From assembly GCF_009914755.1 (NCBI RefSeq), contig NC_060939.1: a stretch of DNA of 64,000 nucleotides, one strand, 5' to 3'. Shown in pieces: positions 51,600-52,579 of the stretch. A program made the translations under genes and the position numbers. How positions within the stretch are numbered: position 1 is the first letter of the stretch; each line of letters opens with the position of its first letter. Below the pieces are notes generated by a model. It did no database searches and had not been told where the DNA came from. It saw nothing but the letters and a program-made list of their open reading frames with translations. The stretch comes from the human T2T-CHM13v2.0 reference genome, Homo sapiens.

Positions 51600-52461
51600 A
51601 TATCCTTTGTGGTTTCTTTTCCAGACTATGAGTGTGTATTCATCTTGGAAATTGTGCTCAGTTTCTTTTAGAGTAGTCCCCCTTGCTCCCTCGTCTTCAG
51701 TAGATAGTTTCCAAAATCCCTAGTGGATGCTTGAAACTGTAGACAGTACCAAACTCTATATATATTGTTTTTATATATGTAAAAAATACACACACGCTTA
51801 TGATAAAGTTTATACAAATTAGGTACAGTAAGAGATTAACAGTATTAAAATATAACAAGTATAACACAATACTATAATAAAAGTTATGTGAACTTTTATG
51901 TGGTCTCTCTCAAAATATCTTCATATTTTCAGACAGTGGTTGACTCTGGGCAACTGAAACATGGAAAGAGAAACCACAGATAAGGGGGGACTACTATACA
52001 TATTTTCAGTTTTCCGTATTTTCCCCAAATAATTTTAACTCATCAAAGTATACCATTATTTTATACAAATATTTCTCCTGTATCTTTCTTTTATGTTAAT
52101 ATACTTGACACAGCCGTTAGCATACATTCCCACAGTACTTAGCACTTGGAGGATACAGAGAAAGTAAAAAACACATTACTGCCTTGAAGAAGTTAAGAGT
52201 TTAGTTGGCCAATTGAATTTTTAATGCAAATATCCAGTATAAAATGCTGTTTTAAGACTGCCACAAAATAAAATATTGTTTTATAAATGGAAATGAAAAT
52301 AGATTTTGCCAGGTGAAGTGGTGTGCACCTGTAGAGGCAGGACCACTTGAGCCCAAGTTTGAGACCAGCCTGGGCAAGAGAGTGAGACCCCATCTTAAAA
52401 AAAAAAAAAACACGGAAATAGGTTTCAATATTATTGGACATTTACTCCTTAATGTTACTAA
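51600..52461 (+). other. PIGB: PIGB intron 2: U12-type intron with AT...AA termini
   Basis: 5' site ATATCCTTTG; branch site TCCTTAAT at 52446-52453; no AG before exon 3. Confidence 0.85.
51672..51996 (-). mobile_element. MER44A-like (Tigger) MITE inside the U12 intron
   Basis: Terminal inverted repeats agtagtccccctt / aaggggggactact. Confidence 0.7.
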
Positions 52462-52579
52462 TTATGGTTATTTGACTTGGGAATGGACAGAGAGACTGAG
52501 GAGTTACACTTATCCCTTAATCTTTGCAAGCATTTACAAGATTCTTCATCTTTTAGGGAAAGATAGTGTTCAGTTGCTG
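52462..52579 (+). CDS. PIGB: PIGB exon 3
   Basis: (N)[39 protein letters not shown]; donor CTG|GTAAGT; phase consistent with 417 nt cumulative. Confidence 0.93.

What the first reader, a model, noticed from the sequence alone, without database searches (positions are those of the whole stretch)
51600..52464. Minor-spliceosome intron with rare AT-AA ends and a tandem AC/AA acceptor choice
Seen: donor ATATCCTT, branch TCCTTAAT, then GTTAC-TAA|TTATGG. The recalled protein (..VFNYGY..) requires splicing after AA (52461). The canonical AC (52457-52458) is only ~6 nt from the branch A and would add one Asn in frame (FNNY). Inference: branch-point distance overrides dinucleotide identity, making PIGB and GPI anchoring sensitive to U12 defects (RNU4ATAC, ZRSR2), and standard splice predictors would miss variants here.
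Basis: partly seen in the sequence, partly recalled or inferred. Interest (0 to 1): 0.7.

Follow-up and report, generated by a model that had tools for sequence, protein, structure and literature searches.

The report
Known AT-AA minor intron in PIGB
The second intron of the human GPI-anchor gene PIGB is a real but already catalogued minor-spliceosome intron that ends in a rare AA, likely because the standard AC lies too close to the branch point, and published patient and knockdown data already show it is retained when the minor spliceosome fails.

Summary
PIGB intron 2 (51600-52461, 862 nt) has a U12 donor, the branch motif at 52446-52453, an AC 6 nt and an AA 9 nt past the last branch A. 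It is listed as AT-AA or U12-type in the supplements of four papers. The AA junction has 372 reads in 14 tissues, 34 ESTs and 4 cDNAs. Retention rises in RNU4ATAC cells (LCL 0.08 to 0.43), on CENATAC depletion (0.29 to 0.76) and in ZRSR2-mutant MDS (0.20 to 0.60). 154 of 171 homologues carry the one-residue junction; one chimpanzee model carries the extra Asn. Spacing likely decides the acceptor: 22 AT-AC introns counted by hand use sites 8-15 nt from the predicted branch A, none closer, and 4 of 6 curated AT-AA introns skip a nearer AC. One correction: the only rival acceptor I found documented is a downstream AT (+4 nt, frameshift), not the AC. AC use was not measurable here. An effect on GPI-anchored proteins is untested.

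The parts
51464..51599 (+). PIGB exon 2 (coding)
   Evidence: RefSeq table; translation matches Pfam PF03901 positions 2-37, E 6.9e-10
51600..52461 (+). PIGB intron 2, 862 nt, U12-type, AT-AA ends
   Evidence: same length and flanking sequences as hg38 chr15:55320411-55321272 / hg19 chr15:55612609-55613470
51600..51608 (+). U12 5' splice site ATATCCTTT
   Evidence: MIDB score 99.5
51721..51723 (+). First in-frame stop if the intron is retained
52446..52453 (+). Predicted U12 branch sequence TCCTTAAT (branch A 52452 or 52451; not mapped)
   Evidence: same motif given as bp_seq and as BPS
52457..52458 (+). Skipped AC, 6-7 nt from the branch A; would add one Asn in frame
   Evidence: no RefSeq exon starts at 52459; one chimpanzee model has the extra Asn (P0004)
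52460..52461 (+). Used AA acceptor, 9-10 nt from the branch A
   Evidence: 372 reads in 14 tissues, 34 ESTs, 4 cDNAs (PMC4176328 supplement); homologue spacing
52464..52465 (+). Minor AT acceptor, 13-14 nt from the branch A (866-nt AT-AT intron, frameshift)
   Evidence: 16 reads in 2 tissues, 16 in GM12878, 3 ESTs; stop codon follows
52462..52579 (+). PIGB exon 3 (coding)
   Evidence: RefSeq table; Pfam PF03901 positions 39-78, E 1.8e-10

Best explanation
This is PIGB intron 2, an already catalogued U12-type AT-AA intron that is retained when the minor spliceosome is impaired, and the AA is likely chosen over the nearer AC because an acceptor needs about 8 nt or more from the branch A. Steps: (1) U11/U12 recognise the donor at 51600 and the branch sequence at 52446-52453 (motifs shown; the pairing is established knowledge). 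(2) Branching is at A52452 or A52451 (predicted, not mapped). (3) The AC at +6/+7 is too close to be used (inferred from other introns). (4) No AC lies in the usual +8 to +15 range, so the tolerated AA at +9/+10 is used (junction shown by published reads; reason inferred). (5) A minority of transcripts use an AT 4 nt further on and frameshift (shown by published reads; decay by NMD inferred). (6) Retention brings a stop at 51721 and would lower PIGB mRNA (a drop is reported on CENATAC depletion).
For: Motifs and distances. Listed as U12/AT-AA in PMC4176328, PMC6717393, PMC6800510 and PMC8280824 supplements. Retention: RNU4ATAC fibroblasts 0.002 to 0.051, amniocytes 0.010 to 0.069, LCL 0.077 to 0.431 (the LCL set is one patient and one control in technical replicates); CENATAC depletion 0.29 to 0.76, padj 2e-16, mRNA log2FC -1.57; ZRSR2-mutant MDS 0.20 to 0.60, padj 2e-7. 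One residue lies between the exon-2 and exon-3 Pfam matches (positions 37 and 39). WQ-to-TWEW spacing fits the AA junction in 154 of 171 homologues and in 124 of 148 distant representatives, 19 of which lacked the anchors. Hand counts from PMC8280824: the first 22 of 228 'AT AC' rows lie 8-15 nt from the predicted branch A, none at 7 or less, and 5 skip an AC at +3 to +7; 4 of 6 NM-supported AT-AA introns skip an AC at +3 to +7. The branch scan covered -40 to -3, so short spacings were not excluded by design. Read-through gene models keep the spacing while the last two bases vary, AA in five and AC in two (inferred from codons).
Against: No count of AC-junction reads was available: the read table lists only non-canonical junctions. 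The branch point is predicted; the lariat table I tried gave nothing, with 16 of 27 files unsearched. One chimpanzee model has the extra Asn (P0004). Distance is not the whole rule: STX6 and TMEM87A skip an AC at +9, and in PIGB the AA wins over ATs at +10 and +13, nearer the stated 11-13 nt optimum, though NMD may hide those products. In MVA patients the rise in retention was not significant (0.31 to 0.51, padj 0.065). Homologues are mostly annotation products and not independent. The 22 rows are the top of a sorted table, not a random sample.
Confidence: 0.85

Rival explanations
1. The AC is used in a sizeable share of transcripts, giving a true tandem acceptor and a PIGB isoform one Asn longer.
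For: AC is the canonical partner of AT; the product is in frame and would escape NMD; 'PIGB isoform 6 [Pan troglodytes]' has the extra Asn (P0004); a table of non-canonical junctions would not list it.
Against: No RefSeq exon starts at 52459 (hub table). 1 of 171 homologues shows it, and a gene finder limited to canonical ends would produce just that model (inference). None of 22 AT-AC or 14 NM-supported AT-AA/AT-AT introns counted uses a site 7 nt or less from the predicted branch A. Loop length is the same in 124 of the 129 distant representatives that had both anchors.
Confidence: 0.06
2. The AA is picked mainly by local context (flanking bases, exon-3 signals, ZRSR2 binding) or only appears dominant because NMD removes the frameshifted AT products; spacing is secondary.
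For: Two introns skip an AC at +9. PIGB has ATs at +10 and +13; the +13 one shows 16 vs 150 reads in GM12878 and 7 vs 73 in the tissue mix despite its frameshift. ZRSR2 sensitivity is reported to go with short branch spacing (review PMC11874965).
Against: NMD cannot explain the lack of the in-frame AC product. Spacing is kept in seven read-through models while neighbouring bases change.
Confidence: 0.08
3. The AT-AA ends are a mapping or reverse-transcription artefact of the 2-nt direct repeat at the junction.
For: The junction can slide 1-2 nt; one pipeline scored 100% non-annotated donor and acceptor use in seven tissue columns.
Against: The intron responds to three minor-spliceosome defects. 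The mouse ortholog is also listed as minor.
Confidence: 0.01

Closest known systems
PIGB intron 2 as catalogued (MIDB / PMC6717393; PMC4176328; PMC6800510; PMC8280824)
   Same: The same intron: 862 nt, same donor, branch and acceptor sequences, labelled ATAA / AT_AA / U12.
   Different: Nothing in identity. PIGB had 0 hits in the main text of PMC4176328; I saw no passage anywhere that discusses the skipped AC.
Other human AT-AA U12 introns (ABHD18, RASGRP4, MSH3, PROX2)
   Same: AT-AA ends; RASGRP4, PROX2 and one ABHD18 intron also skip an AC close to the branch (hand count).
   Different: PIGB has the shortest spacing (9 nt) of the six NM-supported AT-AA rows (others 10-13), and its skipped AC is in frame.
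NOP2 (P120) AT-AC intron, the model U12 substrate (that role recalled)
   Same: Same 9-nt spacing from the last branch A by my count.
   Different: Ends in AC and has no nearer AC.
NAGNAG tandem acceptors of U2 introns (recalled)
   Same: Two potential acceptors 3 nt apart, in frame.
   Different: U12-type; the two sites are AC and AA, and use of the upstream one is not shown.

Membership tests
U12-type (minor) intron | 5' splice site RTATCCTT at +1..+8 | tested here: met
   ATATCCTTT at 51600
U12-type (minor) intron | Branch sequence TCCTTRAY close to the 3' end | tested here: met
   TCCTTAAT at 52446-52453
U12-type (minor) intron | Short branch-to-acceptor spacing, no polypyrimidine tract | tested here: met
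   9-10 nt, inside the 8-15 nt range of 22 AT-AC rows; 8 mixed bases after the motif
U12-type (minor) intron | Splicing depends on minor-spliceosome components | not testable with these tools
   Published supplement rows show retention with RNU4ATAC mutation, CENATAC depletion and ZRSR2 mutation
U12-type (minor) intron | Branch nucleotide mapped inside the motif | tested here: inconclusive
   No hit in the searched part of the PMC5378181 supplements; 16 of 27 files not searched
A-type (AT-AN) subclass, AT-AA form | Intron starts AT and the used acceptor is AA | tested here: met
   Sequence and RefSeq; read support; Pfam and homologue spacing
Tandem alternative acceptor (NAGNAG-like) | Both acceptors used in transcripts | tested here: inconclusive
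   No RefSeq exon at 52459; 1 of 171 homologues (a chimpanzee model) has the AC product; AC reads not countable

The most novel reading that the evidence does not exclude
PIGB's short-spaced AT-AA intron, together with the minor introns of PIGN and GPAA1, makes GPI anchoring a bottleneck in minor-spliceosome disease, so that ZRSR2-mutant blood cells or RNU4ATAC/CENATAC-deficient cells show a measurable partial loss of surface GPI-anchored proteins. PIGB retention rises more than the reported averages (ZRSR2 +0.40 vs 0.19 for A-type introns; CENATAC +0.46 vs 0.36; TALS LCL +0.35 vs 0.20). The three genes share an enriched 'protein lipidation' row. The listings of three searches showed no paper measuring this.
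Probability: 0.15. Interest if true: 0.5.

Novelty: already known. Interest (0 to 1): 0.14.

Why it matters
As biology it is a tidy natural example of a known rule: U12 acceptors are set largely by spacing from the branch site. In practice it is a trouble spot. Several gene models from other species misread this junction, one published pipeline scored it as 100% mis-spliced, and variants at c.299+1..+8 or in the branch sequence of this recessive disease gene (disease link recalled) may be under-called by tools built on GT-AG sites. It would matter more only if reduced PIGB splicing were shown to lower GPI-anchored proteins in patients.

Tried and rejected
No solved structure matched exon 3 (0 hits), so no PDB chain could confirm the junction; no fold was predicted because a one-residue loop insertion would not be resolved. 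Four primary papers on U12 acceptor and branch choice (Dietrich 2001 and 2005, Levine and Durbin 2001, McConnell 2002) are not held, so I saw none of them; the spacing rule is cited from a review. No mapped branch point was found. A search for PIGB intron-2 splice variants listed 8 papers, none on that topic by title or abstract start. Searches linking the minor spliceosome and GPI anchoring gave 0 papers or listings with none on it (15 of 27 and 25 of 99 listed). Sheth 2006 counts three human AT-AA introns and names RASGRP4, FLJ21106 and MSH3, not PIGB, so that early catalogue appears to lack it. A-to-I editing of the AA to an AG-like end was considered: the passage seen reports it for three AT-AG and four GT-AA sites, AT-AA is tolerated unedited, and I could not test it. 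The 100% CAT5+CAT8 score was rejected as real alternative splicing because it conflicts with 372 annotated-junction reads and fits the 2-nt slide. Earlier scan findings were not available.

Full report
Observation. The sequence is as described. Exon 2 of PIGB ends at 51599, ATATCCTTT starts at 51600, TCCTTAAT lies at 52446-52453, an AC at 52457-52458, an AA at 52460-52461, and exon 3 starts at 52462. The intron is 862 nt. The AA junction gives one Asn; the AC junction is in frame and would give two. Neither motif is rare in the window alone (3 vs 1.71 expected; 7 vs 12.95), but the only plus-strand RTATCCTT starts on the intron's first base and a branch motif ends 8 nt before the acceptor. The junction can slide 1-2 nt left without changing the mRNA.

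Which acceptor is used. RefSeq starts exon 3 at 52462 and lists no exon at 52459 (hub table). Pfam PF03901 matches exon 2 up to position 37 and exon 3 from position 39, leaving one residue. Of 171 homologues from three searches (one search listed 120 of 621 hits), 154 have the spacing of the AA junction, one has the extra Asn (P0004, a chimpanzee 'isoform 6'), and 16 are read-through, exon-skipped or lack the anchors. Of 148 new distant representatives (150 of 5331 listed), 124 have the same spacing, 19 lack an anchor and 5 differ. These are mostly annotation products, so they are not independent. The supplement of PMC4176328 gives the 862-nt AT-AA junction 372 reads in 14 tissues, 150 in GM12878, 34 ESTs and 4 cDNAs. 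It also lists an unannotated 866-nt AT-AT junction with 16, 16, 3 and 0, which ends at 52465 and frameshifts. That table holds only non-canonical junctions, so AC use cannot be read from it. The documented competitor of the AA is therefore a downstream AT; the AC remains unmeasured.

Already known. The intron is a row in MIDB, with a minor mouse ortholog (PMC6717393 supplements), in PMC6800510 as U12, and in PMC8280824 as AT_AA with the same branch sequence. Retention rises in RNU4ATAC cells: fibroblasts 0.002 to 0.051, amniocytes 0.010 to 0.069, LCL 0.077 to 0.431 (the LCL comparison is one patient and one control). It rises on CENATAC depletion (0.29 to 0.76 at 48 h, padj 2e-16, mRNA log2FC -1.57) and in ZRSR2-mutant MDS (0.20 to 0.60, padj 2e-7). 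In CENATAC patients the rise was 0.31 to 0.51, padj 0.065, not significant. Baseline retention differs widely between studies (0.002 to 0.31), so absolute levels are uncertain.

Mechanism. A review states that branch-to-acceptor distance matters for U12 introns, with an optimum of 11-13 nt, and that non-canonical ends are tolerated (PMC3584512); AT-AN pairing is likewise described in PMC4176328. I counted spacings by hand from the PMC8280824 table, from the last A of the listed branch sequence to the intron end. The first 22 of 228 'AT AC' rows lie at 8-15 nt (8 x3, 9 x3, 10 x4, 11 x4, 12 x6, 13, 15); none is at 7 or less, and five skip an AC at +3 to +7. NOP2 has 9 nt, like PIGB. Of ten U12 AT_AA rows, six are NM-supported (9-13 nt) and four of these skip an AC at +3 to +7; eight AT_AT rows lie at 10-12. 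Branch sites there were predicted by a scan from -40 to -3. In PIGB the AC at +6/+7 is below this range and the next AC is at about +24, so the AA at +9/+10 is the likely default. Distance is not the whole rule: STX6 and TMEM87A skip an AC at +9, and PIGB's ATs at +10 and +13 lose to the AA, though NMD may hide them (inference).

Comparative hint. [quoted passage not shown] Human P0001, Myotis P0053, the bird Oxyruncus P0080, Galemys P0066 and unnamed P0011/P0092, P0039 and P0093 all show Leu-Asn-x-x-(Asn or Thr)-Tyr. Leu-Asn fits the branch motif, Asn implies an AA acceptor (five of seven) and Thr an AC (two of seven: Galemys, P0093). The nearer AC is implied in four and absent in three. Spacing thus looks fixed while the dinucleotide drifts. 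This is inferred from codons of mispredicted proteins; I did not see the DNA.

Consequences. Retention brings a stop at 51721. Whether lower PIGB mRNA lowers GPI-anchored proteins is untested; my searches showed no such measurement. GPI deficiency is recessive and usually needs deep loss of activity (recalled), which makes a clinical effect uncertain. [quoted passage not shown] In PMC6717393 the PIGB intron scores 100% for both a shifted donor and a shifted acceptor in seven tissue columns (Hisat2), most likely a slide artefact (inference).

What I saw of each paper. Passages and supplement rows: PMC4176328 (one supplement file unsearchable), PMC6717393, PMC6800510 (one file unsearchable), PMC8280824 (one file not searched). 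Passages, tables and one section: PMC1557818. Passages only: PMC3584512, PMC11874965, PMC13602164, PMC2831892 (nothing on PIGB). Passages and part of the supplements: PMC5378181. Not held and not seen: Dietrich 2001 and 2005, Levine and Durbin 2001, McConnell 2002. bioRxiv supplements were closed and may hold more PIGB rows.

Verdict. A real, correctly read, already catalogued AT-AA minor intron whose U12 dependence is published and whose acceptor choice fits a known spacing rule. Interest 0.14.

Noticed in passing
window 52515-52521: A second branch-like CCTTAAT lies inside exon 3, with an in-frame AG about 10 nt later (52529-52530); a possible cryptic U12 acceptor, no evidence of use.
   Followed up: no
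window 52557: A RefSeq alternative exon-3 start follows TTTTAG and is in phase with the end of exon 1, so a GT-AG route skipping exon 2 could bypass the minor intron while deleting 77 conserved residues; the partner donor is not given in the table (inference).
   Followed up: partly
window 52483 and 52519: Two RefSeq alternative exon starts follow GA and TT, not acceptor-like; they may be transcript starts of predicted models.
   Followed up: no
window 52376-52579: The intron's last part, after an Alu-like stretch and poly-A (repeat identity recalled, not tested), is open in frame with exon 3, giving spurious read-through ORFs such as P0001 in protein databases.
   Followed up: partly
P0032, P0036, P0053, P0066, P0072, P0080, P0090, P0091: Gene models of rat, Myotis, Galemys, naked mole-rat, a bird, lynx and sheep misread this junction, running into the intron's donor or branch sequence or dropping part of exon 3.
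   Followed up: partly
P0093 (unnamed record): Read-through residues imply an AC at both +6 and +9 from the branch A, a natural test of spacing with two identical dinucleotides (inferred from codons).
   Followed up: no
PMC6717393 supplement file 6: PIGB, MYO7A, NR2C2AP, MORC4 and others score about 100% for paired donor and acceptor shifts, which suggests aligner artefacts at slidable junctions rather than real splicing (checked only for PIGB).
   Followed up: partly
PMC8280824 supplement file 6; PMC1557818 Table 3: PIGB, PIGN and GPAA1 all appear among minor-intron genes, and mouse Gpaa1 has AT-AT ends where human has AT-AC.
   Followed up: no
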